A stretch of DNA of 64,000 nt from a bacterium (GCA_018435605.1 JAHDNF010000008.1:1192-65191), one strand, 5' to 3'. Positions 1 through 31,577 are shown, counted from the first letter of the stretch. Numbers and translations are program-made. Notes: generated from the letters alone by a model not told the origin.

Positions 1-3000
1 GAATGGGATAATGCAACCCAGACTTGGACATATATTATATATGATTATCCCTTGGAAGACGAGAGGTATGGGTATATAGATCATGACAACAATGGTACGG
101 TCAGCGCTGGTGATCAGCTTGAATCGCGTGCGAAGTTTGATGCTAATGAAAACCTTATTTCTAATACGGTTCTGTTTAGAAGTGGTGGCGCGTACTGGAA
201 TCAGGGAGAAATCCGCACGATAACTCACTATAATTATAATGGTACAATCTCGACCAAAATAAACAAGATGCCACAGGAAGGCTCCGCAGATGGCGATTAT
301 ACCACTTATAATTATAATCGGGATGGTAATCTGTATAGAATAGACCATTTTGATATCAGTGAGGGTAAACTGTTCGCTGATTATTTAATGAATGGTTTTG
401 TTACTATGACGGAGATATACGCAATTACAGTTACAGGTACACCTCCGATCAGAGATGGCAACGTGACTATCGGAGCGTTGTTGGAAGTCATATATAAGAA
501 TACTCAGACGCTACCGGACGGCAGGGTTCGTGTAACAGATCCGGATACAGGCCTGATACAGATATACAATTCACAAGGACAACTGGTAGAGTCTACGGAT
601 AACCAGAAAGTTGTGAATATATATTATTATGATAACGAAGGTAATTTTGTACGTGAAGATAACCTTGGTTACAAGATAGTGTGGTATGGTGATCCTTCCG
701 ATCCTAATACCGGTTACACCGTGTATTATAATCAATTGAACTCTATAACTACGTATGAGTTTACCGTACCGCTGGGACGTGGTAACGAATGGAGAATGAT
801 ACAGAACGAGTATTGGGCTGACGGATTGTTGATCCAGCGTGATTTTGAAACGCAGGATATCATATCGATTGTGAAATATGAGCGCGACTCTCAATCCGAT
901 CTGGTTACGGAAACGGTTATTTATCAGCACAGGCTGAAAACTGTTACTGAGATGAACTGGCCTCAGTCCGGTTGGCGCGCGGTACTTATACCGGGTGGAG
1001 CTGAGAATGATAATGACGCTGTGATGATTATCGACAATACAAATAAATTGCGCGGGTATATGGAAATACTCAAGAGTTCGAGTTATAAATCAACCGGCAA
1101 TATTATTCTCAGTGTAGTCTACGATTATGATACCAGCGGCAACCAAATCGGTTATGTCGATGCGAATAAGGATGGAATCTGGCAATCGAGCACTGAGACA
1201 ACAATGTACAGTTATACCGAAAAATGGAGCGTGGATGAAACCAAAGAGGTTACACGTATCTTTAAAGCCGGAGGCGATATTATAGAGATACGCGATGCGA
1301 CATTTAATGGTAAACTGCGTGCCAAAATAGTGCTTAACGGTACAGGATTCTCTTATGATTACAATAATCCTTTACATGTGGCAACCAGCAACTTGTATTT
1401 ATACAATAGCGACGGTTCGTGGGATATTTATGTAGAAAACACCAATAAAAATGGTATTTTCGACAACGACGGTTCGGAAACCGATACCGGTTACGACGGA
1501 GTTCCCAATGAACGAAGTCATAACGGCGCGATGATGCAAGTACTCGATAACGAAGGGAATATCATATCCAACACCTTCGGAAGCGGATACATGGTCGATT
1601 ATATGTATGACAATGAAGGGAACTATTTGGGAACGCGCGAAACAAGGTATTTCGGCAGTACATATTATTACGACAATGAAGGTAATCCGTATCCTGAAGG
1701 AATCATAGATTATCATGGCAACTATATACATATAGACCCGACATCAGGCTCATATATGAAACATTATAAAGAGTTTGAAACCGATGGAAGCTATTCGGGA
1801 ACATATAACCTATATAGCGGCGGATTGCTGGCTACTCAGATAAATAGCCAAGGCCAGATTACTTATAAGAAGTACACATCCGCAGGTACGACTATTGTAT
1901 TGGAAAACAACGGTGGTGTGGTGCATATAGCCAATCCGTCGAATCCTAGCGATATAGACGCACAGATTCTGGCTGGCGGCGAATATAAAGAGTGGCACGA
2001 TACCGGATATCCGTCTTTGATAGCAGGGTATAATTCCGGAGACGGATCGTTGGTTACCCGTCTTAATTCGTCGGGTTATTATCAGAGTCAGACATTCGTT
2101 GACGGCAGTTTCTATGATACCTCAGGTTCCATTGCCACATATCAATATTATGAGATGGATCACAATTATTTCTATGTGCTAGAGGGTTCAACCCAATACG
2201 TATTCTTTACTCAGGAGTACCCGAATATTGTTCAGAACGTAACAGCCGGCGTATCTTTGACTATTCAGAACAACGGTACTACGCCGACGAATGTTGTGGA
2301 CAATTCGAAAGTATACAAATGGACTGAAGACAGCGGTTCTACTACGGTATACAGATTCAACGGAATCAACCGTTATTTCAATAGTTCCGGAGTATTGCAG
2401 AAGACTGTCTGGTCTGATGCGACCGGTACGGTACAGCGTACTTTAAACTATGGTGCTAGTCTTGGCGGAGGCCTGTTTGAAATTAATTCCGTAGTAGACG
2501 GTAACGGATCAAGTTTAACACTCAACAGATCAGGCAGTACGATTACCGGTTTTGATATTACTGTAGGCACTAATACTACTATTGCTATAAATAGCGCCGG
2601 TAAGACTACTTCAGTCAGTACGTTAGGTCATATTCAGACTTACGACAGTAGCGGTAATGTCACATCAATTACAACTGCCGACGGTCTGGTTCAACTCAGT
2701 TCGAACGGTAAGGTCAATTCGGTAACCGATGTTGACGGAACTACTATGACGTATAACAGAGATGGCGGCGGCAACATTGTCAGTGTAATCGTGGAAGACG
2801 CTACACTGGGCATGAGGCGGTTCTATGAGGTCTTTTCGAGTAACCTGCGGTTATCGTCCGTAACGGAAAGTTCCGGAAGATTGAGCGAATATTATTACAA
2901 TACGTCGGGATCGATACGAACCTATTCCGATGCTACTCCGACTTCATATTCGGTAATCGTAACAGACGGCGATACGGTTTATCGATATGGATACAGGCCT

Positions 3001-3264
3001 GACGGCGGAATACCCGGTTTGTATCTGTATAATGTGACACATCCGGATTATATGTTGACTTATACACGTCATTCAACTTATCCGTACTACATACTAAGTC
3101 AACAGCTTGTCATTTACGGACCTGAAATATCTGGAACACAACATAATATAACTCTGGAATTTTTCGGGTCGAGTTGGAAGACCGGAGGAAACTATCTATA
3201 CGGCGATCTGTATTATATTACAGGAACACGTTTCGGTACGGAATACGCTGTTAAGAATCCTTGA
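1..3264 (+). CDS. YD-repeat (Rhs/teneurin-like) protein, 5'-truncated by the window edge
   Basis: The open frame continues upstream of the first ATG to position 1 with no stop. It has many degenerate YD-type repeats (YDNEGN, YDYDTSGNQIGY, TYDSSGNVTSITTADG, TYNRDGGGNIVSV) and is rich in Tyr/Gly/Asn/Thr. A rho-independent terminator follows. Confidence 0.6.
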   Translation, partial: EWDNATQTWTYIIYDYPLEDERYGYIDHDNNGTVSAGDQLESRAKFDANENLISNTVLFRSGGAYWNQGEIRTITHYNYNGTISTKINKMPQEGSADGDYTTYNYNRDGNLYRIDHFDISEGKLFADYLMNGFVTMTEIYAITVTGTPPIRDGNVTIGALLEVIYKNTQTLPDGRVRVTDPDTGLIQIYNSQGQLVESTDNQKVVNIYYYDNEGNFVREDNLGYKIVWYGDPSDPNTGYTVYYNQLNSITTYEFTVPLGRGNEWRMIQNEYWADGLLIQRDFETQDIISIVKYERDSQSDLVTETVIYQHRLKTVTEMNWPQSGWRAVLIPGGAENDNDAVMIIDNTNKLRGYMEILKSSSYKSTGNIILSVVYDYDTSGNQIGYVDANKDGIWQSSTETTMYSYTEKWSVDETKEVTRIFKAGGDIIEIRDATFNGKLRAKIVLNGTGFSYDYNNPLHVATSNLYLYNSDGSWDIYVENTNKNGIFDNDGSETDTGYDGVPNERSHNGAMMQVLDNEGNIISNTFGSGYMVDYMYDNEGNYLGTRETRYFGSTYYYDNEGNPYPEGIIDYHGNYIHIDPTSGSYMKHYKEFETDGSYSGTYNLYSGGLLATQINSQGQITYKKYTSAGTTIVLENNGGVVHIANPSNPSDIDAQILAGGEYKEWHDTGYPSLIAGYNSGDGSLVTRLNSSGYYQSQTFVDGSFYDTSGSIATYQYYEMDHNYFYVLEGSTQYVFFTQEYPNIVQNVTAGVSLTIQNNGTTPTNVVDNSKVYKWTEDSGSTTVYRFNGINRYFNSSGVLQKTVWSDATGTVQRTLNYGASLGGGLFEINSVVDGNGSSLTLNRSGSTITGFDITVGTNTTIAINSAGKTTSVSTLGHIQTYDSSGNVTSITTADGLVQLSSNGKVNSVTDVDGTTMTYNRDGGGNIVSVIVEDATLGMRRFYEVFSSNLRLSSVTESSGRLSEYYYNTSGSIRTYSDATPTSYSVIVTDGDTVYRYGYRPDGGIPGLYLYNVTHPDYMLTYTRHSTYPYYILSQQLVIYGPEISGTQHNITLEFFGSSWKTGGNYLYGDLYYITGTRFGTEYAVKNP

Positions 3265-7984: not shown

Positions 7985-10900
7985 TTATAAACTTGCGGCA
8001 AAGGCAGAACGTGCTTTGTTAATAATTTGTAAGCGATGTAGATGAGGTGCAAGTTGTTGGGGAGTGATCCCGGGAGCGACATATTCGAACTGAACATTAT
8101 AATCATTCATAAAGGAAGCGATTAGAGAATTTTCAATTTCAACCATTTCATCAAGCAAAATACGTTGCGAAGTATATTCGTAACCTGTAGTAGACATAAT
8201 ACGCACTACATGTGCCTGAAAGCGTATTAATTTCGCTAGGTTATCTATGGAAGCTCCTTTAACAACAGCTAAATATGCTCTATAAAACGCTTCGCTGGAT
8301 AAAAATAAGTTCGCACCGTAACCGCGTTTGATATTTTCACCTTCAATTTCCAGATGATCATTGAATCGCAGTAAGAACGGTACAGGTGAGTCCATAGTCC
8401 ATCCTTTGCTGGATATGAGCCATATGCCGACATAATTGAGGTCATCGATAGCATTGACATCTCTGGAATCCTTTTTGAAGTAGTCATATATCTTTTCTAC
8501 CATATCGTGACCCCAGTTGAAATCTTCTATATGATTTATATAAAAATTTGTGTCATCCGGGTCGAGGGCGCGCTGTATTACTTTTAAATTGTGTACACTG
8601 TATTCTGTTTTAAGATGTTCCATAATTTTACCGCCCAGATTTTCAAGTGTTAAAATGATTTGATACGCCCTATTGTCAGATTGTACATGCGGTATAGAAG
8701 ATAGTTGTCTCGGAGTAGTTGGCGGCTGTTCCTGATCGGCCAGAACTATTTTTTCCGCGAGATCGGGGTATAGTTTGGTCAATGAAGTATGTTGAGTCTT
8801 ATTCCAGATAAGAACTTTTTCCGATTTTGCGATATACGCCTTTATGTTTGGATCGGATAGCATTTCATTAGAAGTAGGTAATTTATCGTCCGGCATAATG
8901 ACAACTATGTATGTTTTGGACGGCGGTCTTGGGAATGAATGGATGCCAAAGTAAACGGATATGTCGATATCCGGCGACCATGGTGTGGTTGGAAATTTAA
9001 AGTCTATACTCCGAGATTGCAGTTCAGCACGGGCGGACTGAGTATCCAAGTCGAAGAAATAATCCAATCCGAAAATACCCCATCTAGCAAACGATTTAAT
9101 CAGAGGCTCCAAACTTTTAGGAGCCGGTTTATCAGAATTTACGCTTGTGGTTACTTCTTTATTAACTGAGGCGTGTAAATCATATTTACGTTGTACGTAG
9201 TAAAGTTTTTGCATTTGCGTAGTTTGACCTGATTTCTTAGTCATAACATAATCCAGCATGGTGGTATACGCTTTTTGCGCCGCCTCGAAATCGTTTTGGA
9301 GCGGCGGGGATGTAAGAAAATTCAAGTATGTTTCTACCCCTGCTCGGTCGGCAACCATGTTTACAAATGAATATTTGGTGGATTTTGTGTTTTGCCGAGT
9401 AAAGAGATTGATAGTTAAGTCTTTTACGAGGAATTCGTTATATCCAAGATAATGATATTCTGTCAGCCGTACTCCGGGCACTCCTCTTGCAAGCGGCATA
9501 TCTAATGCGCCAGAATTGGTTCCTGTGGCGAATGTACCGCGTCCAAGGATTGCGGCTTGCTCTGGTAATGTGAATGTTCTTTGAAATTTGTTGTGACGAA
9601 GTTGCCATGCGTTGGTGAAGTCAATCAAATCAGGGTCGTTATCGATCATAATTTGTAATTCTCTGGCTATTTTTACTAGATCGAAAGTCAAAGATTTTAT
9701 ACGATCAATATACGATGTTTTAGCCGGAATTCGTTCGATGCGAGCGAGTTCATCAAGCAATTGGTCTATGAAAGTTTGCGGCGAATTGCCGAAAAAGATT
9801 ATTTTAGGTGATTTTCCTGTTTTCTGGAATGTAAGAGTTTTTAAGAGATTGATAAAACGGATTGTATCATAAAGATTGCTGTTGCGAACCGCTTCTGTAA
9901 GTTGCATATCGAGACGTAAACTAAACGGAATAATGATATCTTCATCTGTGTTTATATCAAGTGATTGGTAAAATTCATCTGCCAGCCTTTCGTCAGTGTC
10001 GGAGACTGGAAAATCCACAGGTTGTTTCATATCAAAAAAAGATGAAGCGTAGACGTTAGTTGCTTCATTTGGTAATTCGGGATGATGTTTAGAAAAGTCG
10101 TAGCCCGCTACAAACAGTTCCAGAGGATATGATTTCAAGATATTTTTATCGTTATCTATAATGTTTTGAATAACCAATTCCCACAAGACGCGCGGAGGGT
10201 CTTTTTGGCGGAAATGGCTCATGATGTTCATCTGGTCATGTACCAAAGGGTTGATCGGATCAATCCAAATAACCTCGTCGATGACTCCTTCAAGTTGTTG
10301 CATAACAAAATTTCTATTGGTCGGTATATCGAATAAGACAATAGATAGATACTCATCAGGATTTTTTTTACGGATTCCACGGATGGCGTGCATCCAGCGA
10401 ATGGAAGAACCCACTCCATCCGCAAAAAATGGAAGAATCGCTATATTTTTGCGAGGTCGGTCGTTTAGCGATTCGAACCTATAGCAAGACTGCATTTTTG
10501 ATTTGGTTATGGAAACTATATTATCAGGGGCATTGATATCTTCAACTATGATATGACTGTTTGTTTCTGTAATAAAAAACCTTGCCTCAGCGTTTGACAC
10601 TGTTCTGCGAAAGAAAAATTCTCTGTGTTTTATGTCAAGAGTATGCGCGGCCAATCCCTTCCAAAACAGGTTTATATATCGTAAGTCATTACCGCTTGGT
10701 TCTGAATATGATACATTGTTGTCAAGCGCGTCGCGTTTAAGCAGTCTTCTAAATCGTTTAAGATTTTCCTCTGACATGGATGCGTATTCAACGGTATTCA
10801 ATCCGTAATATGATGTTGATGCGTAAGGAGGCCGGATACTTTGTTTCGAAATATCTTCAGGTATAAAAGCCAGCAGGTCTGGAGGGGAATCAAGTATAAT

Positions 10901-12793
10901 CATATAGCGTTTGGAGCGTTCATCGGGATCGTTGAACTGGCGTATTGAAGTTTGTATCAAAGCGAATGCCGATTTGAGTTTATCTTTCAATGGTGAATAG
11001 GTTAGACGAAACGCAAGATTGTCAATTATTTCTTGTGTCATTCCGTCGATTCCTGAAGACAGCTCAGCGGCCAGTATTTCTTCAGGTAGTGCGAACAGCG
11101 CGTCAATGTCGACATTTTCAAGATTAGAAATGACAGTTGCCCGTCCTTCGGCGATAGCGGTCTGTATTTGAGGAGGTACTAAGTTTTTTTCAAATGTTTT
11201 ATCTCGTAATTCGTTTGCCAGTGCAGTTTCAACCGGCGTACCGCGTGTAGCCTGAAAATCTAGAAATTGTTCGTTGCGGGAAATAAGGAATTGATGTGAT
11301 GCTTTATTCCTGAAGATATCTATATAATCGCATGTCGGTTCTGCGGCGCCGAAGTGAGGCGATACAACCGCGTATGAAATATTTTCTTCTTTAAAAAAAT
11401 TTATAAGCGAATCCCTGTGAAAACCACCGAGTATGACAACTGCAACAGAATGTTTAGACTCGGTTATATAAGTATGTAGTTGGCGGATAAAAAAATCATC
11501 CCGAGCTATAGCCAGCCGATAAAAACGATCGATTTTATCGAGTAGCTCTAAAGAAAATACCGGCGGTTTAGGAACATCGCATGGGATAAGATGATCGTCG
11601 GCTATAGACTGTAATATTGCAGGCCAAAGCATGGGCTGAAATGTGTCGATGTGATCTGTATAGTAGATATATTCGTTTCTTGTAAGCTGAAGTGTGAGTA
11701 GCCGTTTATAAGTGAAAATATTATCTGACAGCTGTTTTAAGGAACTCTGATCGGATGTGGTGATAAGGGTATCGTAGAGTTTTAGTTCCAGAAGTTGCAT
11801 TTCGTCGGCTATAGACAGCATATCTATTTCGTCCATAGCTGTGAATACATCGTAGAATTCTTTTATAGAAGGTTCATCAAAAAGGTTTCCCGATCGTTGC
11901 TGTATCTGTGTAATTAAATCGGCAACATTATCGAGCGATTCCAATATGACTTGTTTGTGTAAGTCGTTCCAATTCTCGTATAGATCGGGGTTGTCTTCTT
12001 TTATTTTTGTCAGATGCTCATTGATTGAGGTGCGCAGTTGGATTTCGTTGAGTTTCTTTAAATAGTCAATATATTGTACGAACAGCCCGATATTGGGATA
12101 ATCTTTTGTCATCAAGCCATTTGTAACGCATTTGTCATTAAGATACGGCAAAAAATCGTTTATGGTGATGTTTCCGCTGTGATACCTTCGACAGTGCATG
12201 TCGAATTCCAGTAATTGAGGCGAAAAGACATCTTTTTTTACGATATCGACTTTGTTGTTTAACTCATCAAGAAAAGGACTGAGTAGTTCGCTGACAGCGA
12301 GAGTGTCAAACAGTGCGTTGACGTTATCGAGATACAGCGATTGATTTTCAATTCCGGTAATGGTAAATGTATAATCTGCATTAATATCAAGAAACTCTTC
12401 GCCGGAAATAAATCCTTTTTTCAAATAATCTATAGATACATTTTCCCTAATTTCTTTTGTAGCTATCGGGCGTAAGTGACTCAGATTTAAGTTTCCGGAA
12501 CCGCCTTCCGTAAAAACCTGATTGACGCTGAAGTTGGTTATAAGATAATCCAGCAGATTGGCTATATTGCGCTGGGCTTCGTGGTTGTAATGGAAATCAT
12601 TGACAATTATAAACTTATGAGCGCTTTGCGTTTCGTGTTTAGATTGTACGGCCGCGTATTTATCGGGTATCAATGAGCTCAAAGTTCTGGAATTATCTGA
12701 TGCGTAAGAATCGAAATAAGATTCCATCAAAAGGAAAAAGAACAACCATGAGCAAGCAGTAAGTAAATATTTTTTAGGTATGTTGATTAGCAT
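7985..12793 (-). CDS. giant (1602 aa) N-terminally anchored/secreted multidomain protein with an internal GT-B (GT9 heptosyltransferase-like) domain; function unknown
   Basis: Single uninterrupted ORF. N-terminal hydrophobic segment (LLTACSWLFFFLLM). Internal region around aa 780-1110 carries the N-terminal GT9 motif (NIAILPFFADGVGSSIRWMHAIRGIRKKNPDEYLSIVL, compare IL.IRLS.LGD...P..RALK...P.A.I..L) and the C-terminal motif (GTNSGALDMPLARGVPGVRL, compare NDSG.MHLAAAL..P.V.LFGP). The rest has no recognisable similarity. Confidence 0.6.
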   Translation of the reverse strand: MLINIPKKYLLTACSWLFFFLLMESYFDSYASDNSRTLSSLIPDKYAAVQSKHETQSAHKFIIVNDFHYNHEAQRNIANLLDYLITNFSVNQVFTEGGSGNLNLSHLRPIATKEIRENVSIDYLKKGFISGEEFLDINADYTFTITGIENQSLYLDNVNALFDTLAVSELLSPFLDELNNKVDIVKKDVFSPQLLEFDMHCRRYHSGNITINDFLPYLNDKCVTNGLMTKDYPNIGLFVQYIDYLKKLNEIQLRTSINEHLTKIKEDNPDLYENWNDLHKQVILESLDNVADLITQIQQRSGNLFDEPSIKEFYDVFTAMDEIDMLSIADEMQLLELKLYDTLITTSDQSSLKQLSDNIFTYKRLLTLQLTRNEYIYYTDHIDTFQPMLWPAILQSIADDHLIPCDVPKPPVFSLELLDKIDRFYRLAIARDDFFIRQLHTYITESKHSVAVVILGGFHRDSLINFFKEENISYAVVSPHFGAAEPTCDYIDIFRNKASHQFLISRNEQFLDFQATRGTPVETALANELRDKTFEKNLVPPQIQTAIAEGRATVISNLENVDIDALFALPEEILAAELSSGIDGMTQEIIDNLAFRLTYSPLKDKLKSAFALIQTSIRQFNDPDERSKRYMIILDSPPDLLAFIPEDISKQSIRPPYASTSYYGLNTVEYASMSEENLKRFRRLLKRDALDNNVSYSEPSGNDLRYINLFWKGLAAHTLDIKHREFFFRRTVSNAEARFFITETNSHIIVEDINAPDNIVSITKSKMQSCYRFESLNDRPRKNIAILPFFADGVGSSIRWMHAIRGIRKKNPDEYLSIVLFDIPTNRNFVMQQLEGVIDEVIWIDPINPLVHDQMNIMSHFRQKDPPRVLWELVIQNIIDNDKNILKSYPLELFVAGYDFSKHHPELPNEATNVYASSFFDMKQPVDFPVSDTDERLADEFYQSLDINTDEDIIIPFSLRLDMQLTEAVRNSNLYDTIRFINLLKTLTFQKTGKSPKIIFFGNSPQTFIDQLLDELARIERIPAKTSYIDRIKSLTFDLVKIARELQIMIDNDPDLIDFTNAWQLRHNKFQRTFTLPEQAAILGRGTFATGTNSGALDMPLARGVPGVRLTEYHYLGYNEFLVKDLTINLFTRQNTKSTKYSFVNMVADRAGVETYLNFLTSPPLQNDFEAAQKAYTTMLDYVMTKKSGQTTQMQKLYYVQRKYDLHASVNKEVTTSVNSDKPAPKSLEPLIKSFARWGIFGLDYFFDLDTQSARAELQSRSIDFKFPTTPWSPDIDISVYFGIHSFPRPPSKTYIVVIMPDDKLPTSNEMLSDPNIKAYIAKSEKVLIWNKTQHTSLTKLYPDLAEKIVLADQEQPPTTPRQLSSIPHVQSDNRAYQIILTLENLGGKIMEHLKTEYSVHNLKVIQRALDPDDTNFYINHIEDFNWGHDMVEKIYDYFKKDSRDVNAIDDLNYVGIWLISSKGWTMDSPVPFLLRFNDHLEIEGENIKRGYGANLFLSSEAFYRAYLAVVKGASIDNLAKLIRFQAHVVRIMSTTGYEYTSQRILLDEMVEIENSLIASFMNDYNVQFEYVAPGITPQQLAPHLHRLQIINKARSAFAASL

Positions 12794-12930
12794 CGGCGTG
12801 TCCCGATAAAATATTATTGGTGTATAATGTTTTTTATTTAGTTATATTATACTATATTTTTTACAAAAAAGGAAAATAGATGGTATATAAATAAAGGTCT
12901 ATTTTTATTCGAGGTTTTAAGAAAAGAAAA

Positions 12931-13003
12931 AGCGAGCGAAGGGATTCGAACCCTCGACAGCCAGCTTGGGAAGCTGGAACTCTACCAACTGAGTTACGCT
13001 CGC
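12931..13003 (-). tRNA. tRNA-Gly (anticodon CCC)
   Basis: Reverse complement folds as a canonical cloverleaf: GCGAGCG acceptor stem, D-arm ACTC/GAGT, anticodon stem CCAGC/GCTGG with loop TTCCCAA, T-arm GAGGG-TTCGAAT-CCCTT, discriminator U. No encoded CCA. Confidence 0.85.
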
Positions 13004-13083
13004 TTTGCAAAAGATATATACAATATAGTATTTATATTAAGTTTATCCGTCAATAAAAATCAGCTGTAAATTACCGGTCTTAG

Positions 13084-14007
13084 CTAGCGATTTACAAATT
13101 CATGTAGCGACGATTTTCGAATCAAATCCTGCAAACGCTCTTCGATAGCATGTTCGGTCAGCCCGAATAGATTGTTCATGCTGAAATCTTGGACGTTGAA
13201 AGATGCCATAACTGTGCCGTATGCCATTGCTTTTTTCAATGTCATTGTGTCGGTTTTGCCGGATTTACAGATATATCCGAGCATTCCGCCGGCAAACGTG
13301 TCGCCTGCGCCTGTGGGGTCTACCACTGTTTCGAGAGGGTAGGCTGGAACTGTGAATATATCGTCGCCATGTACAAGCAATGCTCCGTGTTCACCTTTTT
13401 TTACCACAACAGACTTAGGACCGTATGATTGAATTGCTCTGGCGGCTTTTATGATGTTATCGGATTCCGTGAGCATTTTGGCTTCAGCATCGTTGAGCAC
13501 GATTAGATCGATTTTCCCGAGCAATTTAATCAATTGCGGTTTCTTGTAGTTGATCCATAGATTCATGGTATCGCAAGCGACAAATTTGGGAGATCGAGTA
13601 AGATTAAGTACATCAAGTTGTAATTCCGGATTAATATTCGCTAGAAAAACGTATGGAGTGTCTTTGTATGATTCGGGCAATTCGGGTTTGAAATTTTCAA
13701 AGACATTCAGTTCAGTTGATAATGTTTCCGCTTCGTTGAGATTTTGCATATAACTTCCTGCCCATCGGAATGTTTTTCCGGGTTGTCGTACAAGACCGGT
13801 TGTGTCGATATTTCTTTTTTTAAGCATATCGATATGTTTCTGTGGAAAATCTTCGCCGATAACTGCCACGAGTTTTACAGGAACGAAAAAACTGGCTGAG
13901 TAAGAAAAGTATGTCGCCGAGCCTCCGAGTGATTCATCTCGTTCTCCTGCTGGAGTTTGTACATGATCAAACGCGACAGATCCTACTACAAGCAGACTAT
14001 TATCCAT
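13084..14007 (-). CDS. PfkB/ribokinase-family sugar kinase (candidate heptose-7-phosphate kinase by context)
   Basis: N-terminal LLVVGSVAFDH and C-terminal PfkB signature DPTGAGDTFAGG. Overlaps thiE by 8 nt in the same operon as gmhA and hldE domain II. Confidence 0.7.
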   Translation of the reverse strand: MDNSLLVVGSVAFDHVQTPAGERDESLGGSATYFSYSASFFVPVKLVAVIGEDFPQKHIDMLKKRNIDTTGLVRQPGKTFRWAGSYMQNLNEAETLSTELNVFENFKPELPESYKDTPYVFLANINPELQLDVLNLTRSPKFVACDTMNLWINYKKPQLIKLLGKIDLIVLNDAEAKMLTESDNIIKAARAIQSYGPKSVVVKKGEHGALLVHGDDIFTVPAYPLETVVDPTGAGDTFAGGMLGYICKSGKTDTMTLKKAMAYGTVMASFNVQDFSMNNLFGLTEHAIEERLQDLIRKSSLHEFVNR

Positions 14008-14647
14008 TTATCTCACCTTTAAGTTGTTGTTTAAATTGGGTAACTTTTTCATATTTATCATTGGCTTGGAGTATGGCCGAAACAACGGCCACTCTGTTTA
14101 TGCCATATTCGGTAATTTTGTTTAAACGGGCAAGGGCAACACCGCCGACGGCGAATACCGGTATATCGATGGTATTTACGACTTGTGCCGCGACATCGAT
14201 TCCGATAGCGGTGTATTCGGGTTTAGTTCCTGTAGCGAATAAAGGGCCTATAGCTATGTAATCGGGATTGAGAATACGGGTATGTAGAGCCTGATCTGCA
14301 GAATGAGTGGATGCACCTATAATAATTTTTTTTCCATATTGATCAGCTATTGAACGCGCTACAGGGACAGGCAAGTCGTCTTGCCCCAGATGAACTCCGT
14401 CCGCGTCGGACGCGAGAGCCAGATCAAGCCGGTTGTTGACAATAAACGGTATCGAATAAGAAGCTGTTATTTCTTTGAGTTGACAACAGATATTTAAAGC
14501 GTGGGCATCGCTTAGTGAATAATCCCTAAATTGAATAATATCCACCCCCGCTTCACAGCATTCGCGAGCGATTTCGCACAGACACTCTGCACCGATGTAC
14601 ATGGTGTCCAAAATTAGATAGAGATGCCTATTTTTTAGTGAGAGCAT
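14000..14647 (-). CDS. thiE: thiamine-phosphate synthase
   Basis: ThiE motifs present: FIVNNRLDLAL...DGVHLGQDD...GASTHS...DYIAIGPLFATGTKP...VGGV. Confidence 0.8.
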   Translation of the reverse strand: MLSLKNRHLYLILDTMYIGAECLCEIARECCEAGVDIIQFRDYSLSDAHALNICCQLKEITASYSIPFIVNNRLDLALASDADGVHLGQDDLPVPVARSIADQYGKKIIIGASTHSADQALHTRILNPDYIAIGPLFATGTKPEYTAIGIDVAAQVVNTIDIPVFAVGGVALARLNKITEYGINRVAVVSAILQANDKYEKVTQFKQQLKGEING

Positions 14648-15053
14648 ATTTTATCATTTTCTCCAGTGTATATACTTCAAACCGCAATTCTTTAATATCG
14701 GCTACGGGACGCGGACATATCAACTTCAAAAATTCTTCGATTACCCGCATAGCTTCTTCAACCCTCCGGCAGTTGGCTTCAACCAGTGAATCTATGGACT
14801 GACGGTTTCCCTCCAGATGGGGAATATATTCTTTTCCGACGTCTTCACTGCTTTCCCTGCTGGCAGTGATGCCGGATATCTCTGAGCGGAGCTCTTTTTC
14901 CAATTCACAAAATGAATGGCGTATTGTTTTTATCTGAGCGTATATGGATTTATCGTCCAGAAGGAATCGGCCTATTTCTTCTATAACGCGAAGGCCTTCG
15001 CGTGTTCTGTTACAGTTGGCGTCTATGATTCGCTTGATTTTGTCATCTATCAT
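14628..15053 (-). CDS. ThiD2-family protein (the N-terminal accessory domain of some ThiE proteins, here a separate gene)
   Basis: Contains IIDANCNRTREGLRVIEEIGRF. A second similar motif (VEANCRRVEEAMRVIEEF) suggests an internal duplication. Overlaps thiE by 20 nt. Confidence 0.5.
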   Translation of the reverse strand: MIDDKIKRIIDANCNRTREGLRVIEEIGRFLLDDKSIYAQIKTIRHSFCELEKELRSEISGITASRESSEDVGKEYIPHLEGNRQSIDSLVEANCRRVEEAMRVIEEFLKLICPRPVADIKELRFEVYTLEKMIKYALTKK

Positions 15054-15543
15054 TAGCGCAGTATCTTTCTATGATTGTCTGTATTATATTTCTTGTAGCT
15101 TTGCCTTGAACCAGTTCGATTGTTTTAACAATTCCGCCCCAGCTTTCAACTTCGTTTCTGCCGACAATGGTATCGAGCGTATAGTCAGCCCCTTTGATGA
15201 GTATGTTAGGTCGTAATGTCGTTATAAGAGTATAAGGTGTTTCTTCGTCGAAAGGCACAACGTAATCGACCATTTCCAGAGCGGCAAGTATTTCGGCTCG
15301 TTCTACAAGAGGTACTATAGGACGTAGCGGGCCTTTGTTAAGCTGTACGGAATAATCCGTATTCAGACCGACTACTAAAATATCACCGTGCTGTTTACAT
15401 TGGCGTAAATAGCTGATATGGCCTACATGAATCAAATCAAAACAGCCGTTTGTAAATACGATAACAGCGCCATGTCTTTTTTTATCTTCAAGGATTGGAG
15501 CTAATTGGGAACAGTTGAATATTTTTCCGTTCATGACGCTCAT
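15043..15543 (-). CDS. hldC: D-glycero-beta-D-manno-heptose-1-phosphate adenylyltransferase (stand-alone HldE domain II / RfaE2)
   Basis: VFTNGCFDLIHVGHISYL ... ILIKGADY ... ATRNIIQ closely mirrors E. coli HldE residues 344-477 and the cytidylyltransferase HxGH motif. Confidence 0.8.
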   Translation of the reverse strand: MSVMNGKIFNCSQLAPILEDKKRHGAVIVFTNGCFDLIHVGHISYLRQCKQHGDILVVGLNTDYSVQLNKGPLRPIVPLVERAEILAALEMVDYVVPFDEETPYTLITTLRPNILIKGADYTLDTIVGRNEVESWGGIVKTIELVQGKATRNIIQTIIERYCANDR

Positions 15544-16130
15544 GTACCTGCCGGCTTGGAATGGCAGACGTGCATTTGTTCGACAAGATCGCAGATAAGA
15601 TGCTCTATCATTAGATGCATTTCCTGAATTATAGGGGTCGAATCAGAGGGTATTACGATTGCCATATCGGACAAAGCCAGCATATCTCCGCCTGTTTTGC
15701 CTGTAAGTGATATGGTAACACATTGTTTTTCCTTGGCGGCAATCAAAGCCTGTGTAATGTTGGGGGATGTGCCGCTTGTAGAAATAGCCAATAGAATATC
15801 GTTCGGATTGGCAAGGGCTTCAATCTGTTTGCTGAAAATTTTATCAAAAGAATAATCATTGCTGATTGATGTAATAACCGATGTGTCTGTTGTTAAAGAG
15901 ATAGCCGGCAGGGGAGACCGTTCTCTGCGGAAACGATTAACAAATTCCGCCGCGATATGCTGGGCATCCGAAGCGCTTCCGCCGTTACCGCAAATCATTA
16001 ATTTCCCGCCATGAGAAATTTGTTTATAAATTATTTTTGCAACATCTGATATAGAATCGGTTAATGTGCTTAAAACTATTTCGGTTACGCGCTGGTGTTC
16101 TTTTATGTAATTAGTAATTGAGGAGCGCAT
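15540..16130 (-). CDS. gmhA: phosphoheptose (sedoheptulose-7-phosphate) isomerase, SIS domain
   Basis: GGKLMICGNGGSASDAQHIAAEF and the rest of the SIS fold pattern; ATGA 4-nt overlap with hldC. Confidence 0.85.
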   Translation of the reverse strand: MRSSITNYIKEHQRVTEIVLSTLTDSISDVAKIIYKQISHGGKLMICGNGGSASDAQHIAAEFVNRFRRERSPLPAISLTTDTSVITSISNDYSFDKIFSKQIEALANPNDILLAISTSGTSPNITQALIAAKEKQCVTISLTGKTGGDMLALSDMAIVIPSDSTPIIQEMHLMIEHLICDLVEQMHVCHSKPAGT

Positions 16131-16140: not shown

Positions 16141-16839
16141 TCAAAATTCTCTTTCGTCACGGTTGTAATCGGCTTCGGTATTCGATTCCTGAGTCTCTTG
16201 AATCGGCTGGGTTACAACTCGTACATCAGGCGGATTTAGGGTTTTGTGACGCCGTGTGGGTATATCTCGTTGTGCGAAAGAATCTTTAGCAAGAAACACG
16301 TTAACTCCGTTGACATTTTCTATACCCAGCATATTTTGTAATTGAATACGAACCTCTTTCTGTATTTCCTCGATAGCAAGTGGTAAATTATTGACTCCCG
16401 CCCATATTTTGATTTTAAGATTCACATTGACAGAATCTTTGCCTTTAAGGGTTATCGATGGATATACATCTTTGATTTCCCTGAAATTTTTTCCGACTTT
16501 GCGTATAAAATCTTCAACTGCGAAAATAGAAATCATAATTTCACCTTCGCCGGTATTGTAATGCAGAAAGGTTTCCTTTCGTCTGCCGGATATATTTATA
16601 AAGAAATAAAGTATGGGGATACCGACAAATACTATGCTGGCAAGCAAAACATTAAGTCGGTTATAAAAAAACAGTTCGATTTCTTCTTTTACGAATGATA
16701 TTGATAAAAAACGTTCAAAATAGAGATCGAGCAAAAGTAGGCCGAGTGCAAGAAACGTAAGCGCGAAAATCGAATGGAAAATGAACCTAATAAAATTTTT
16801 CATCATATCATTCCTTTTGCATGTTGTAGCTTTATGCAT
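16141..16839 (-). CDS. membrane protein, possibly an Asp23-associated membrane anchor (AmaP-like); true start may be the internal MMKNFIRF
   Basis: N-terminal TM helices; 8-nt overlap with the upstream Asp23-family gene. Confidence 0.45.
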   Translation of the reverse strand: MHKATTCKRNDMMKNFIRFIFHSIFALTFLALGLLLLDLYFERFLSISFVKEEIELFFYNRLNVLLASIVFVGIPILYFFINISGRRKETFLHYNTGEGEIMISIFAVEDFIRKVGKNFREIKDVYPSITLKGKDSVNVNLKIKIWAGVNNLPLAIEEIQKEVRIQLQNMLGIENVNGVNVFLAKDSFAQRDIPTRRHKTLNPPDVRVVTQPIQETQESNTEADYNRDEREF

Positions 16840-17275
16840 CGAGTATATCTTTTGAATCAGTGTTCGGCAGTTTGACTCCCTGAATAATTAGATTTATTGC
16901 AACAACCTTTTTACCTGCCATTTCTTCAACATGTTTGCGGACATTATGTTGAATCTGTATAGCCATCTCCGGTATTTTTACGCCGTATTCGACAAAAATG
17001 CTGACTTCGATAATGACATTTTCGCCCTTAGTCTGGACTTTAATGCCGCGGTCAAGACTGCGTTTTCCGAATTTTTCAGCTATATCGCCGACTAAACCGC
17101 CGCCTGCGGCTATTACGCCAGGAATTTCCTGTACTGCCATATAGGTTATAACAGCTATAACATCGTCGCTTATAACGGTGCAGTCGCCGATCTGATCCTG
17201 ATCGTCTAATAACTTGACATCATAACCGTCAAGATTCGTTTTGCCGTCTTTGGCTTGTTTCGTTTTGGTAGACAT
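16832..17275 (-). CDS. Asp23/Gls24-family alkaline shock protein
   Basis: Asp23-family pattern (ISDDVIAVITYMAVQEIPGV...GIKV...VIIEVSIFVEYGVKIPE). Its position after accB-accC matches B. subtilis yqhY. Confidence 0.75.
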   Translation of the reverse strand: MSTKTKQAKDGKTNLDGYDVKLLDDQDQIGDCTVISDDVIAVITYMAVQEIPGVIAAGGGLVGDIAEKFGKRSLDRGIKVQTKGENVIIEVSIFVEYGVKIPEMAIQIQHNVRKHVEEMAGKKVVAINLIIQGVKLPNTDSKDILDA

Positions 17276-17293: not shown

Positions 17294-18643
17294 TTATTCC
17301 CTGTGTTTTAACAGTTCTTCAATGTAATTCGTTGCAAATTTACCGCTTCGGAAATTTTTCTCGTTTATTATTTCCCGCTGAAAATGAATGTTGGTAAAAA
17401 TGCCTTCTACAGTAAATTCGCTTAGAGCTCTGTCCATTATGGTAAGGGCGTCTTCGCGAGTTTTGCCGTGGGTGATCAGTTTGGCGATCATCGAATCGTA
17501 ATATTGCGGGATTGAATACCCCGCGTAAACATGGCTGTCTACCCGTACACCCATGCCGCCTGGCGCATAATAACCGGTTATTTTACCCGGCGACGGCATG
17601 AAGCCCCTGTCTGGGTTTTCGGCATTGATACGGCATTCTACAGCATGGCCGTTCATTTTGATATCTTTTTGAGTAAATGAAAGTTGTTCTCCGGAGGCAA
17701 CTTTTATTTGCTCTTTAATTAAATCTATACCGGTAATAAGTTCTGTTACCGGATGTTCGACTTGTATACGGGTATTCATTTCCATAAAATAGAAGTTGCC
17801 GTGTTTATCATATAAGAACTCAATAGTACCGGCATTGGAATAGTTTACTTCCTTTGCCGCTTTGACTGCGGCATCGCCCATTTTTTGTCGTACGGCCTCG
17901 GGAAGTACAGGAGAAGGGGACTCTTCAATGAGTTTTTGATGTCTGCGCTGTACCGTACAATCGCGTTCAAATAGATGAACGGTATTGCCGAGTTGATCTG
18001 CAAGAATCTGTATCTCAATATGGCGGGGGTTTTCGATAAACTTTTCGAGGTAAACGTCTGCATTGCCGAACGCAGATTCCGCTTCCGAACGAGCGGCCAT
18101 GTAAGCGTTAGCAAGGCTGATATCGTTGTGAGCGACGCGCATACCGCGCCCGCCGCCGCCGGCAGACGCTTTAATAATTACCGGATAACCCATTTCACGG
18201 GCGATCTTTAAGGCATCATCAGCGGATTTTACCACGCCGTCACTGCCCGGTATAGTAGGAACGTTGGCGTTTTTTACCGTTGTTTTTGCGCGTGATTTGT
18301 CGCCCATCAATTTAATGGATTCGGAACTGGGACCTATGAATTGTATATTGCAACTTGCGCAGATTTCAGCGAAATGGGCGTTTTCTGCCAGAAACCCGTA
18401 GCCGGGATGAATAGCTTCGACATTGCCGATTTCTGCGGCGCTGATTATGCTCGGAATATGTAAATAACTTTGTGAACTCGGAGCGCGCCCGATACAGATA
18501 GCTGTATCAGCCATTTTAGCATGGAGGCTATCGGCATCTGCTTCGGAATAAACGGCGACTGTTTCTATATTCAATTCATGACAGGCACGAATAATTCTCA
18601 GCGCGATTTCTCCGCGGTTTGCGATCAATATTCTTTTCAACAT
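17294..18643 (-). CDS. accC: acetyl-CoA carboxylase biotin carboxylase subunit
   Basis: [19 protein letters not shown]..., ATP-grasp motifs, 449 aa. Confidence 0.9.
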
Positions 18644-18658: not shown

Positions 18659-19147
18659 CTACTTTTTTATTTTGAATAGTTTTTGGCCGTATTCAACAGG
18701 AGCTCCGTTTTCGGCCATGACTTCAAGGATTTTTCCTTTCATTTCCGCTTTGATTTCATTGAATACCTTCATTGCTTCAACGATACATACTACGTCATCC
18801 GGTTTGACTTCCTGACCGGTTGTAACATAAGGCGGAGATTCCGGAGACGGCGCGAGGTAAAAAGTTCCAACCATTGGCGACACAATGTAATCGACCGACG
18901 GGTCGTTTTCAGGTGCTTTTGGTTGTGCTACAGGCTGAGCGACAGGTTGAGGCGTAGGAGGTAAGATCGGTTGCGGAGAATAGTATGCCTGCATAGGTGT
19001 TTCTGTAATTTGCCGGGTTACTATTTCTTTTTCTTTTCGAAGTATGATTTTGAAATCGTCTTTTTCAAGTTCAAAATCGGTGATGTCGTTAGCTTTCATT
19101 AATTTGATCACTTCCTTGATCTCTCTCAGATCCATTGCAACCTCCAT
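18659..19147 (-). CDS. accB: biotin carboxyl carrier protein
   Basis: Pro/Ala-rich linker and biotinyl-lysine motif EAMKVFNEI. Confidence 0.85.
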   Translation of the reverse strand: MEVAMDLREIKEVIKLMKANDITDFELEKDDFKIILRKEKEIVTRQITETPMQAYYSPQPILPPTPQPVAQPVAQPKAPENDPSVDYIVSPMVGTFYLAPSPESPPYVTTGQEVKPDDVVCIVEAMKVFNEIKAEMKGKILEVMAENGAPVEYGQKLFKIKK

Positions 19148-19251
19148 TTTTGCAGTATAGTAGCAGTGAGTTTCCGTTGAAATTGTGTCATTTTAAGAAT
19201 AATTGAGTGTTTTGTCAAATGAATTAACAGCGCGTTACCTGTCTTTGCTAA

Positions 19252-28166: not shown

Positions 28167-28868
28167 TTATTCGTTTTGAGCGCTGTGCGTATGATATCTA
28201 ATGCGCATCTGTTTTGCTTGTCCGCAACTCATTTTACCTTCAGGGCACGACGTTCTCACACATTCAGGGCCTGCATTTTCAAAGACAACTGGCGCGGCTT
28301 GCTGTACTAGGTCAAGCATCTTTTGTGCCAGATCTCTTATTTCCCATTGTGCCCGCGTACAGCACCGTAACTGAAAAAAATGCAGTAACTCACGAGCGTT
28401 CATGGTTACTACCATGTTCGACATACATGCGTTAGGCAGAATATAGCGGGCGTCTTCTTTGGGAATATTCAGATTATTGAGTTCGCTGTATGTTTTCCGA
28501 ATCATTTCGAGGCAGGAAGAGAACAGCTGGCGTGCCTGTTCGCTACCGGCTATAGATTCGGGCATTACAAAATCGGCATGTTCCATAGATACATAGCGCT
28601 GGCTTTGCTGTGAATACGATGCCAAGCGGTGTCGAACAAGCTGATGTGTTGCGGCGCGCGAAATTCCCTCAATACCGAATGTAAAACTTACATGTTCAAG
28701 CGCCGAGTCGTGTCCTAGCGATTTTAACATGCGAACAAATTTGTAAGCCGACTCGCGGGTGACCTGTCGTTCGATTTCCTCAAATGTTTTATCGGAATAA
28801 CAAATTTTTGCCGCTACAGTGATGGCCTCTTCAGGGCGGTCTGGAGCTTTCAGTAACCGTACATTCAC
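28167..28868 (-). CDS. thyX: FAD-dependent thymidylate synthase
   Basis: ThyX signature RHRLASYSQQSQRY. Confidence 0.85.
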   Translation of the reverse strand: MNVRLLKAPDRPEEAITVAAKICYSDKTFEEIERQVTRESAYKFVRMLKSLGHDSALEHVSFTFGIEGISRAATHQLVRHRLASYSQQSQRYVSMEHADFVMPESIAGSEQARQLFSSCLEMIRKTYSELNNLNIPKEDARYILPNACMSNMVVTMNARELLHFFQLRCCTRAQWEIRDLAQKMLDLVQQAAPVVFENAGPECVRTSCPEGKMSCGQAKQMRIRYHTHSAQNE

Positions 28869-29515: not shown

Positions 29516-29523
29516 TGCTTATC

Positions 29524-30654: not shown

Positions 30655-30659
30655 AAAAA

Positions 30660-31568: not shown

Positions 31569-31577
31569 AAAAACTCC

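What the first reader, a model, noticed from the sequence alone, without database searches (positions are those of the whole stretch)
13084..16130. One translationally coupled operon mixes ADP-heptose genes (gmhA, stand-alone hldE domain II, PfkB kinase) with thiD2-thiE
Five minus-strand genes overlap each other by 4, 11, 20 and 8 nt, so they are almost certainly co-translated. The bifunctional HldE is split: domain II (adenylyltransferase) is a separate gene. The only candidate for the kinase half is a PfkB kinase separated from it by a ThiD2-family gene and thiE. No TPP riboswitch precedes thiE because hldC overlaps its upstream neighbour. The GmhB phosphatase is not in the operon. Either heptose and thiamin-phosphate synthesis are co-regulated here, or this ThiE/ThiD2 pair and the PfkB kinase act in an uncharacterised sugar-nucleotide pathway.
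Basis: partly seen in the sequence, partly recalled or inferred. Interest (0 to 1): 0.6.

Follow-up and report, generated by a model that had tools for sequence, protein, structure and literature searches.

The report
Packed housekeeping operon, not a new pathway
Five overlapping genes in an uncultured Auribacterota bacterium really do sit head to tail, but they are probably three unrelated modules (two ADP-heptose steps, two thiamin steps, a probable adenosine/nucleoside kinase) packed into a much longer housekeeping gene array.

Summary
Five minus-strand ORFs (gmhA, hldC, thiD2, thiE, a 307-aa PfkB kinase) overlap by 4, 11, 20 and 8 nt.

- **Larger array.** The five genes are the tail of a 26-gene co-directional array. 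A third of same-strand junctions in the window overlap, so overlap does not show a shared pathway.
- **Thiamin pair.** ThiD2+ThiE is a known pair (HMP-P kinase plus thiamin-phosphate synthase). Here it is a conserved split of the common fusion.
- **Stand-alone HldC.** It is common, and usually has no hldA beside it.
- **The PfkB kinase.** It is an orthologue (50-57% identity across many phyla) of the Chlorobium "nucleoside kinase" 3KD6. It shows no specific similarity to HldA/HldE domain I. Elsewhere it sits beside metK-ahcY, MTA phosphorylase or a homocysteine methyltransferase. It is therefore most likely an adenosine/nucleoside kinase, not the missing heptose kinase.

One mildly interesting feature remains. 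Related lineages keep gmhA-hldC followed by a variable slot (thiD2-thiE, thiC, thiD2-thiC or PFK), often followed by this kinase. No TPP riboswitch was found wherever this was scanned. I could not test whether hldA or gmhB lie elsewhere in the genome.

Verdict: largely ordinary, low interest.

The parts
19190..19218 (-). Best sigma-70-like promoter match (TTGACA-17-TAAAAT, 11/12) in the 104-nt aroQ|accB gap. It is the candidate start of the transcription unit that ends with the PfkB gene.
   Evidence: The consensus scan found no more sites than in shuffled sequence, so this is only a lead.
18659..19147 (-). accB (biotin carboxyl carrier protein), first gene of the tightly packed run
   Evidence: Biotin_lipoyl domain in the public gene calls. 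Conserved position in L001-L005, L031 and L161.
17294..18643 (-). accC (biotin carboxylase)
   Evidence: Pfam domains. 77-92% identity in L001-L005.
16832..17275 (-). Asp23-family protein
   Evidence: PF03780, 95.6 bits.
16141..16839 (-). AmaP-like membrane anchor. It overlaps asp23 by 8 nt and ends 10 nt before gmhA.
   Evidence: NF033218, 67.4 bits, above cut-off 55. Junction distances.
15540..16130 (-). gmhA-like sedoheptulose-7-phosphate isomerase (first step of ADP-heptose synthesis)
   Evidence: PF13580 104.9 bits. TIGR00441 204.1 bits, just under the cut-off of 209.45. The closest solved structures are phosphoheptose isomerases, up to 182 bits.
15043..15543 (-). hldC, stand-alone D-glycero-beta-D-manno-heptose-1-phosphate adenylyltransferase (HldE domain II type)
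   Evidence: TIGR02199 187.5 bits, above cut-off 181.5. Closest structure 5x9q, 112 bits. HxGH motif 'HVGH' at residues 39-42 is invariant.
14628..15053 (-). thiD2, a small stand-alone HMP-phosphate kinase (HMP-P to HMP-PP)
   Evidence: PF17792 128.9 bits. Matches the N-terminal part (positions 11-137) of the fused ThiE model NF002727. Function as reported in PMC12345177, citing Thamm 2017.
14000..14647 (-). thiE, thiamin-phosphate synthase. Its start lies 20 nt inside the end of thiD2.
   Evidence: TIGR00693 180.4 bits, above cut-off 145.1. NF002727 positions 146-346. The overlapping start is conserved in L001-L005.
13084..14007 (-). PfkB-family kinase, orthologue of the Chlorobium tepidum 'nucleoside kinase' 3KD6. 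Probably an adenosine/nucleoside kinase.
   Evidence: PF00294. 3kd6 at 326 bits. AF2 model pLDDT 94.5 and Foldseek TM 0.93 to 3kd6. SAM-cycle neighbours of orthologues.
12930..13004 (-). tRNA-Gly(CCC), directly downstream. The pfkB-tRNA-Gly adjacency is conserved in relatives and marks the end of the array.
   Evidence: A tRNA follows pfkB in L001, L002, L004, L005, L028 and L031.

Best explanation
The five genes are the distal end of a long, lineage-conserved, tightly packed housekeeping array in a Candidatus Auribacterota genome. The array runs ribBA...rmlA-rmlD-GTs-Wzy-aroQ-accB-accC-asp23-amaP-gmhA-hldC-thiD2-thiE-pfkB-tRNA-Gly.

The last nine protein genes have junctions of 18 nt or less. 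They are probably transcribed together from a promoter upstream of accB and translated with coupling.

Within this run lie three biochemically independent modules:
1. gmhA + hldC, the first and last steps of ADP-heptose synthesis. The kinase (HldA) and phosphatase (GmhB) are presumably encoded elsewhere, as is usual for stand-alone hldC.
2. thiD2 + thiE, which convert HMP-P to HMP-PP and then to thiamin phosphate. They form a conserved two-gene split of the widespread ThiD2-ThiE fusion and are expressed without a TPP riboswitch.
3. A PfkB kinase of a widely distributed orthologous family, most likely phosphorylating adenosine or a related nucleoside (SAM-cycle or purine salvage).

Shown: gene identities, overlaps, synteny, and the absence of a riboswitch. 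Inferred: a single transcript, the kinase's substrate, and the location of hldA and gmhB.
For: The array and general compaction:
- 26 co-directional genes of unrelated function.
- 14 of 42 same-strand junctions overlap and 28 of 42 have gaps of 20 nt or less.
- The best promoter-like site lies in the aroQ|accB gap.

Synteny:
- aroQ-accB-accC-asp23-amaP-gmhA-hldC-thiD2-thiE-pfkB is kept in L001-L005, down to about 50-66% protein identity (no asp23 match in L005).
- Overlapping junctions are conserved.

ThiD2:
- Reported as an HMP-P kinase (PMC12345177 and PMC5874261, citing Thamm 2017).
- 84 of the top 150 representatives are stand-alone and 34 are the size of a ThiD2-ThiE fusion.

The PfkB kinase:
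- 326 bits to 3kd6.
- Foldseek top hit 'Nucleoside kinase from Chlorobium tepidum in complex with AMP', TM 0.93-0.95, followed by nucleoside kinases and ribokinases; no HldA in the top 50.
- Orthologues at 50-57% identity in at least 539 species-level genomes.
- All 72 invariant alignment columns are shared by Auribacterota and the other phyla.
- Neighbours elsewhere are metK (TIGR01034)-ahcY (TIGR00936) in about 30 Poribacteria loci, an MTA-phosphorylase-type gene immediately upstream in three other loci (same cluster as L013's TIGR01694 MTAP), and homocysteine S-methyltransferase in L006.

Stand-alone hldC:
- 48 of 66 metagenome loci are stand-alone, and only 7 of those have an HldA-like gene in the available flank.
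- Its neighbours are diverse.
Against: - In related lineages gmhA-hldC is again followed, one or two genes later, by the same kinase even when the intervening gene differs: thiC in L031/L028, PFK in L084. Thiamin pyrimidine-branch genes recur right after hldC: thiD2-thiE, thiC, and thiD2-thiC in L161. This persistence could mean a functional link rather than inherited order.
- No HldA, GmhB, HldD or heptosyltransferase was found in any of the roughly ten related loci, so the 'elsewhere in the genome' assumption is untested.
- The adenosine-kinase assignment rests on context and on a structural-genomics title, not on an assay. No curated NCBIfam model claims this family.
- Co-transcription is not demonstrated.
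Confidence: 0.7

Rival explanations
1. The PfkB kinase is a non-orthologous replacement for HldA. In this reading gmhA, the PfkB kinase and hldC (plus a GmhB elsewhere) make ADP-heptose, and the thiamin genes are passengers inserted between them.
For: - gmhA-hldC and this kinase stay within two genes of each other in three arrangements: window/L001-L005, L031/L028 and L084. In L084 the upstream context and the intervening gene both differ.
- No canonical HldA appears in the window or in any related locus.
Against: - TIGR02198 scores 41.7 bits against a cut-off of 345, and covers only the C-terminal ATP-binding part.
- BLASTP against a canonical HldE domain I gives E=0.11. Thirteen domain-I queries give no tblastn hit.
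- The closest structures are nucleoside kinases and ribokinases.
- 73 of 80 orthologue loci, from other phyla, have no gmhA or hldC within 8 kb, and many have SAM-cycle neighbours instead.
- All invariant residues are shared with those orthologues.
- L161 has gmhA-hldC-thiD2-thiC but no such kinase in its 12 kb.
- Stand-alone hldC usually lacks an adjacent hldA anyway.
Confidence: 0.08
2. The PfkB kinase serves thiamin synthesis in this lineage. It could be an HMP kinase that restores the salvage activity the monofunctional ThiD2 lacks. It could instead be an aminoimidazole-riboside kinase feeding AIR to ThiC.
For: - In the Auribacterota loci recovered here the kinase gene lies directly downstream of a thiamin gene: thiE in the window and L001-L005, thiC in L031/L028.
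- There is a weak Phos_pyr_kin match, 23.7 bits against a cut-off of 27. One orthologue (P0011) is named HMP/HMP-P kinase by a source.
- From my own knowledge: Salmonella STM4066 is a PfkB-family AIRs kinase. Its structure 1tyy appears among the weak PDB hits.
Against: - Orthologues in other phyla are not next to thiamin genes.
- In L084 the kinase follows PFK, with no thiamin gene present.
- In L161 thiD2-thiC occur without it.
- TIGR00097 HMP-P kinase scores 17.5 bits against a cut-off of 205.
Confidence: 0.07
3. Heptose and thiamin-phosphate synthesis are deliberately co-regulated as one functional unit, for example by linking the TPP supply for transketolase with sedoheptulose-7-P use.
For: - Thiamin pyrimidine-branch genes directly follow hldC in three differently composed loci.
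- No TPP riboswitch was found in the window or in L001-L005, L028 and L031, so the thiamin genes depend on upstream promoters.
Against: - The same array also carries accBC, asp23/amaP, aroQ, rml, rib, thyX and ftsY genes.
- Outside this lineage the neighbours of stand-alone hldC are diverse and none recurs as a thiamin gene; thiE-like matches lie about 5 kb from hldC in L126 and L144.
- No biochemical link between the two pathways is known.
Confidence: 0.05
4. The thiD2/thiE split is a sequencing or assembly frameshift, or a programmed frameshift, in a single fused thiD2-thiE gene. The junction in the window carries an A6 run.
For: - Both halves match the fused model NF002727, at positions 11-137 and 146-346.
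- Removing one A from the A6 run would fuse the two frames.
Against: - The split is present in all six genomes, with thiE always in the +1 frame and overlaps of 14-32 nt.
- The junction sequences differ, and the A-run is absent in L004 and L005, so there is no conserved slippery site.
- Stand-alone ThiD2 is the commonest form of the family.
Confidence: 0.02

Closest known systems
ADP-L-glycero-beta-D-manno-heptose pathway with separate HldA and HldC genes instead of bifunctional HldE (as in Burkholderia; HldC structure 5x9q)
   Same: A GmhA-like isomerase and a stand-alone HldC that passes the TIGR02199 cut-off. The closest solved relatives are bona fide GmhA and HldC.
   Different: No HldA, GmhB, HldD or heptosyltransferase lies in the cluster or anywhere in the 64-kb window. 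gmhA-hldC are embedded among acetyl-CoA carboxylase, Asp23 and thiamin genes.
ThiD2-ThiE fusion proteins and stand-alone ThiD2 (Thamm et al. 2017, Biochem J, doi 10.1042/BCJ20170437; NCBIfam NF002727)
   Same: The ThiD2 domain (PF17792) lies immediately before ThiE. The reported function is a strictly monofunctional HMP-P kinase feeding ThiE.
   Different: Here there are two overlapping genes rather than one fused gene, and thiE starts 14-32 nt inside thiD2 in six genomes. There is no TPP riboswitch. No thiC or thiazole genes lie in the window.
PDB 3KD6, 'Nucleoside kinase from Chlorobium tepidum in complex with AMP' (PfkB family, structural genomics)
   Same: 326 bits by sequence. Foldseek TM 0.93-0.95 and rmsd 1.2 Å over about 297 aligned columns. 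Same length, with the conserved GG and DPTGAGD motifs.
   Different: As far as I could find, no biochemical characterisation of any member exists. The only paper in the library that mentions 3KD6 is a pocket-prediction study. The substrate is therefore inferred.
HldA / HldE domain I (D-glycero-beta-D-manno-heptose-7-phosphate kinase, TIGR02198)
   Same: Same PfkB/ribokinase superfamily fold and the same ATP-site motifs.
   Different: 41.7 bits against a cut-off of 345. BLASTP E=0.11 against a canonical domain I. No tblastn hit from 13 domain-I queries. No HldA in the top 50 structural matches.
Mixed-function 'uber-operons' / compact co-directional gene arrays in small or streamlined bacterial genomes
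   Same: Many unrelated housekeeping genes on one strand with minimal or negative spacers, and an order conserved within the lineage.
   Different: Nothing specific. This is a description rather than a defined family.

Membership tests
GmhA (sedoheptulose-7-phosphate isomerase) | Score at or above the curated equivalog cut-off (TIGR00441, 209.45 bits) | tested here: inconclusive
   204.1 bits, about 5 bits under the cut-off. NF010546 scores 219.2 against 276. DiaA scores 149.6 against 352.
GmhA (sedoheptulose-7-phosphate isomerase) | Closest characterised or solved relatives are phosphoheptose isomerases rather than other SIS proteins | tested here: met
   The top 11 PDB hits are phosphoheptose isomerases (182-144 bits). 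DiaA comes only after them.
HldC / HldE domain II (heptose-1-P adenylyltransferase) | Score at or above the TIGR02199 cut-off (181.5 bits), and an HxGH nucleotidyltransferase motif | tested here: met
   187.5 bits. 'HVGH' at residues 39-42, with H39, G41 and H42 invariant in 25 homologues. Best PDB hit 5x9q.
ThiD2 (monofunctional HMP-P kinase, PF17792) | Pfam gathering score (23.5 bits) over the full ~124-residue domain | tested here: met
   128.9 bits, profile positions 1-123 of 124.
ThiD2 (monofunctional HMP-P kinase, PF17792) | Phosphorylates HMP-P but not HMP | not testable with these tools
   The activity is known only from the literature on other members (PMC12345177, citing Thamm 2017).
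ThiE (thiamin-phosphate synthase) | Score at or above the TIGR00693 cut-off (145.1 bits) | tested here: met
   180.4 bits. PF02581 182.8 bits.
HldA / HldE domain I (heptose-7-P kinase), considered for the 307-aa kinase | Score at or above the TIGR02198 cut-off (345 bits), or clear full-length similarity to canonical domain I | tested here: not met
   41.7 bits, over residues 172-274 only. BLASTP E=0.11. No tblastn hit at E≤1e-5 from 13 canonical domain-I queries.
PfkB/ribokinase superfamily (for the 307-aa kinase) | PF00294 gathering score, the N-terminal GG dipeptide and the C-terminal DxxGAGD anion-hole/catalytic Asp motif | tested here: met
   101.3 bits. G28-G29 and D230-P-T-G-A-G-D236 are invariant.
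Adenosine/nucleoside kinase (for the 307-aa kinase) | Demonstrated nucleoside phosphorylation, or membership of a curated nucleoside-kinase model | tested here: inconclusive
   No curated model reaches its cut-off; the best is NF041164 nucleoside kinase, 70.1 bits against 450. Support comes from the 3KD6 title and from metK-ahcY, MTAP and homocysteine-methyltransferase neighbours.
TPP-riboswitch-controlled thiamin operon | An RF00059 match upstream of the thiamin genes | tested here: not met
   No TPP riboswitch at the gathering threshold in the window or in L001-L005, L028 and L031.
Single operon (one transcript) | Co-directional genes with no room for internal promoters or terminators | tested here: met
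   Junctions from accB to pfkB are -20 to +18 nt. No minus-strand terminator-like site lies inside the run.
Single operon (one transcript) | One continuous RNA | not testable with these tools
   No transcript data are available.

The most novel reading that the evidence does not exclude
In Auribacterota and neighbouring uncultured lineages, a nucleoside-kinase-like PfkB enzyme has been recruited as the heptose-7-phosphate kinase. This would make gmhA-hldC...pfkB a non-canonical ADP-heptose module (non-orthologous displacement of HldA), kept together across lineages while the genes between them (thiD2-thiE, thiC, PFK) come and go.
Probability: 0.08. Interest if true: 0.5.

Novelty: new member of a known kind. 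Interest (0 to 1): 0.2.

Why it matters
As it stands this matters little. It is a tidy example that overlapping, translationally coupled genes in a compact genome need not share a pathway.

Three small points may be useful:
- It corrects a tempting mis-annotation: the PfkB kinase is neither HldA nor an HMP kinase.
- It gives context-based support for calling the widespread, uncharacterised 3KD6-type PfkB family an adenosine/nucleoside kinase tied to the SAM cycle.
- It shows that ThiD2 and ThiE exist as a conserved pair of overlapping genes, without a riboswitch, in Auribacterota.

If the minority reading were true (the kinase replacing HldA), it would reveal a new route to ADP-heptose, a molecule of interest for LPS biosynthesis and innate immunity.

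Tried and rejected
- **Programmed or artefactual frameshift joining thiD2 and thiE.** Rejected. The split, the +1 frame offset and the overlap are conserved in six genomes with different junction sequences and no conserved slippery motif.
- **TPP riboswitch.** None found in the window or in seven related loci.
- **Other heptose genes.** tblastn with 13 HldE domain-I queries plus GmhB, HldD and GT9 sequences taken from metagenome LPS clusters gave nothing in the window or in the related loci. The short rmlA-like gene is not HddC: 39 bits against a cut-off of 300.
- **thiC.** Absent from the window and from L001-L005.
- **General link between stand-alone hldC and this kinase family or thiamin genes.** Not seen in 80 metagenome hldC loci, apart from L161.
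- **Solved structure for ThiD2.** None found.
- **Literature.** Thamm 2017 itself is not held. The Auribacterota genome paper (PMC9324843) says nothing on thiamin, heptose or LPS. The only paper mentioning 3KD6 is a pocket-prediction study. A search for adenosine kinase plus ahcY gene clusters gave nothing relevant to bacteria of this kind.
- **hldA, gmhB and thiC elsewhere in the same genome.** Not testable.


Full report
**1. Observation**

The window holds five consecutive minus-strand ORFs at exactly the reported coordinates:
- 15540-16130 (196 aa)
- 15043-15543 (166 aa)
- 14628-15053 (141 aa)
- 14000-14647 (215 aa)
- 13084-14007 (307 aa)

With the upstream-most ATG starts they overlap by 4, 11, 20 and 8 nt.
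- SIS_2/GmhA-like: TIGR00441 at 204.1 bits, just under its cut-off of 209.45.
- Stand-alone HldE domain II: TIGR02199 at 187.5 bits, above 181.5.
- ThiD2: PF17792 at 128.9 bits.
- ThiE: TIGR00693 at 180.4 bits, above 145.1.
- A PfkB-family kinase.

The closest solved structures to the first two are genuine phosphoheptose isomerases and the Burkholderia HldC (5x9q).

**2. Source and the start-codon caveat**

The window comes from a 453.6-kb contig of a Candidatus Auribacterota MAG. The public gene calls there start hldC at M4 and ThiE at M16, which removes two of the four overlaps.

The long ThiE is nevertheless the better model. Its N-terminus (NKxLYLILDTSY) is conserved in five related genomes. 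In two of them the only available start codon lies 14 or 20 nt inside thiD2.

**3. Surroundings**

The five genes are the tail of a 26-gene co-directional array running from 34644 down to 12930:

ribBA-ribH-nusB-PHP phosphatase-ftsY-ribD-ribE-thyX-2-thiouracil desulfurase-like-TIM-barrel protein-LPG_synthase_TM-rmlA-like-rmlD-GT1-WecA-like-Wzy/TPR-aroQ-accB-accC-asp23-amaP-gmhA-hldC-thiD2-thiE-pfkB-tRNA-Gly

- Across the whole window, 14 of 42 same-strand junctions overlap and 28 of 42 have spacers of 20 nt or less. These include junctions between plainly unrelated genes.
- A run of four overlaps is therefore not strong evidence for a shared pathway. It reflects how this genome is packed.
- From accB to pfkB no spacer exceeds 18 nt.
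- The best sigma-70-like match in the region lies in the 104-nt aroQ|accB gap. That scan is not enriched over shuffles, so this is only a lead.
- No TPP riboswitch, and no other riboswitch, reaches the Rfam gathering score in the window.

**4. Conservation**

The order aroQ-accB-accC-asp23-amaP-gmhA-hldC-thiD2-thiE-pfkB is kept in five further genomes (L001-L005; no asp23 match in L005) down to about 50-66% protein identity. A tRNA follows pfkB in L001, L002, L004 and L005, and also in L028 and L031. More distant lineages show variants of the same theme:

| Locus | Arrangement |
|---|---|
| L031/L028 | gmhA-hldC-thiC-pfkB-tRNA |
| L161 | accB-accC-asp23-amaP-PFK-gmhA-hldC-thiD2-thiC-... (no pfkB in 12 kb) |
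| L084 (62% GC) | LPG_synthase_TM-rmlA-...-PFK-gmhA-hldC-PFK-pfkB-HIT |

So gmhA-hldC is followed by a variable slot, often holding thiamin pyrimidine-branch genes, and frequently by the same kinase. No TPP riboswitch was found in L001-L005, L028 or L031. This is the only mildly unusual feature. Other unrelated neighbours (LPG_synthase_TM-rmlA, accBC-asp23-amaP) are equally syntenic. Inherited gene order is therefore the simplest explanation.

**5. The thiamin pair**

ThiD2 (PF17792) is reported to be a strictly monofunctional HMP-phosphate kinase (PMC12345177 and the reference list of PMC5874261, citing Thamm et al. 2017). From my recollection of that paper's abstract, it occurs stand-alone or fused to ThiE; the paper itself is not held.

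- The two ORFs here match the N- and C-terminal parts of the fused model NF002727.
- A search of 1.84 billion representatives found 2,391 ThiD2 relatives. Of the best 150, 84 are stand-alone and 34 are the size of a ThiD2-ThiE fusion.
- The split is real, not a frameshift error or recoding. It is present in all six genomes with thiE in the +1 frame, but the junction sequences differ and share no slippery motif.
- ThiD2+ThiE is thus an ordinary, self-contained step pair: HMP-P to HMP-PP to thiamin phosphate.

**6. The kinase**

Sequence and structure:
- No curated NCBIfam model claims it. The best is an archaeal nucleoside kinase at 70 bits, then ribokinase at 66 bits. rfaE_dom_I scores 41.7 bits against a cut-off of 345, and only over the ATP-binding C-terminus.
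- Its best PDB relative, by a wide margin, is 3kd6 at 326 bits.
- An AlphaFold model (pLDDT 94.5) superposes on 3kd6 at TM 0.93-0.95. The entry is titled 'Nucleoside Kinase from Chlorobium tepidum in Complex with AMP'. The next matches are nucleoside kinases, ribokinases and adenosine kinases, and no HldA appears in the top 50.
- A canonical HldE domain I gives BLASTP E=0.11. Thirteen such domains give no tblastn hit in the window or in related loci.

Distribution and context:
- Orthologues at 50-57% identity occur in at least 539 species-level genomes: Poribacteria, Elusimicrobiota, Abditibacteriota, Actinomycetota, Desulfuromonadales and others.
- All 72 invariant alignment columns are shared by the Auribacterota proteins and the other phyla.
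- In about 30 Poribacteria loci the gene follows metK (TIGR01034) and ahcY (TIGR00936).
- In three loci from other phyla an MTA-phosphorylase-type gene lies immediately upstream on the same strand; its cluster mate in L013 passes TIGR01694 (MTAP).
- In L006 a homocysteine S-methyltransferase precedes it.
- S-adenosylhomocysteine hydrolase releases adenosine, which must be removed (established biochemistry). An adenosine/nucleoside kinase is therefore the best-supported function.
- 73 of the 80 orthologue loci, all outside the Auribacterota group, have no gmhA or hldC nearby.

**7. The heptose genes**

- Stand-alone HldC is common. All 120 closest homologues are 156-223 aa.
- In 66 metagenome loci, 48 are stand-alone and only 7 of those have an HldA-like gene within the available flank. 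Their neighbours are diverse: Lon, Mfd, RelA/SpoT and others.
- The absence of hldA and gmhB next to gmhA-hldC is therefore normal.
- No GmhB, HldD or GT9 gene lies in the 64 kb.
- I could not test whether they exist elsewhere in the genome.

**8. Verdict**

The most likely picture (about 0.7) is a compact, probably co-transcribed housekeeping array. In it, two ADP-heptose steps, two thiamin steps and a probable adenosine/nucleoside kinase lie head to tail without sharing a pathway.

Minority readings, none excluded, are these:
- The kinase replaces HldA (about 0.08).
- The kinase serves thiamin precursor salvage (about 0.07).
- Heptose and thiamin synthesis are deliberately co-regulated (about 0.05).

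Every gene belongs to a known family. The arrangement is a lineage-specific curiosity, and interest is low (0.2).

Noticed in passing
window 56347-56530 (+): 6S RNA (RF00013), 51.4 bits, above the gathering score. It lies just upstream of, and slightly overlaps, the called start of the MgsA-like AAA+ gene at 56492.
   Followed up: no
window 28868-34644 (-): The riboflavin genes ribBA, ribH, ribD and ribE are interleaved with nusB, a PHP-domain phosphatase and ftsY. No FMN riboswitch was found at the Rfam gathering score, which parallels the riboswitch-less thiamin genes.
   Followed up: partly
window 7985-12793 (-), 52-3264 (+), 39835-41124 (-): Three large ORFs (1602, 1070 and 429 aa) have no Pfam match. 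The 1602-aa protein has a hydrophobic N-terminus and is conserved at 61% identity at the same position (after pfkB) in L001.
   Followed up: no
window 14000-14647 (-); L081 10933-11535: The public gene call for ThiE on the source contig (200 aa) starts at an internal Met and cuts off the conserved N-terminus. The 215-aa version that overlaps thiD2 fits the orthologues.
   Followed up: yes
L031 3833-5113, L028 420-1697, L161 6813-8123: In related lineages thiC (PF01964 629 bits; TIGR00190 613 bits) occupies the slot after hldC or after thiD2. No TPP riboswitch was found in L031 or L028; L161 was not scanned.
   Followed up: partly
L161 4337-5368; L084 4118-5437 and 6512-7822; Abditibacteria loci (e.g. 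L077): Phosphofructokinase genes (PF00365; the L161 copy matches TIGR02483, the 'mixed' PFK type) flank gmhA-hldC in two lineages. In Abditibacteria they precede the PfkB orthologue. I could not tell whether this reflects sedoheptulose-7-P metabolism.
   Followed up: no
Search of protein representatives result (P0249, P0254, P0267 and others): 25 of the top 150 ThiD2 representatives are 420 aa or longer, with ThiD2 in the middle (about positions 200-400). These multi-domain architectures were not examined.
   Followed up: no
window 51305-51688 (+): The infC ORF as listed matches TIGR00168 only from model position 45. The real start is probably upstream at a non-canonical start codon.
   Followed up: no
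L084 8940-9440; L161 10984-11478: A HIT-family gene recurs a few genes downstream of gmhA-hldC in both distant lineages. Its best match is an ATP adenylyltransferase model, below the cut-off.
   Followed up: no
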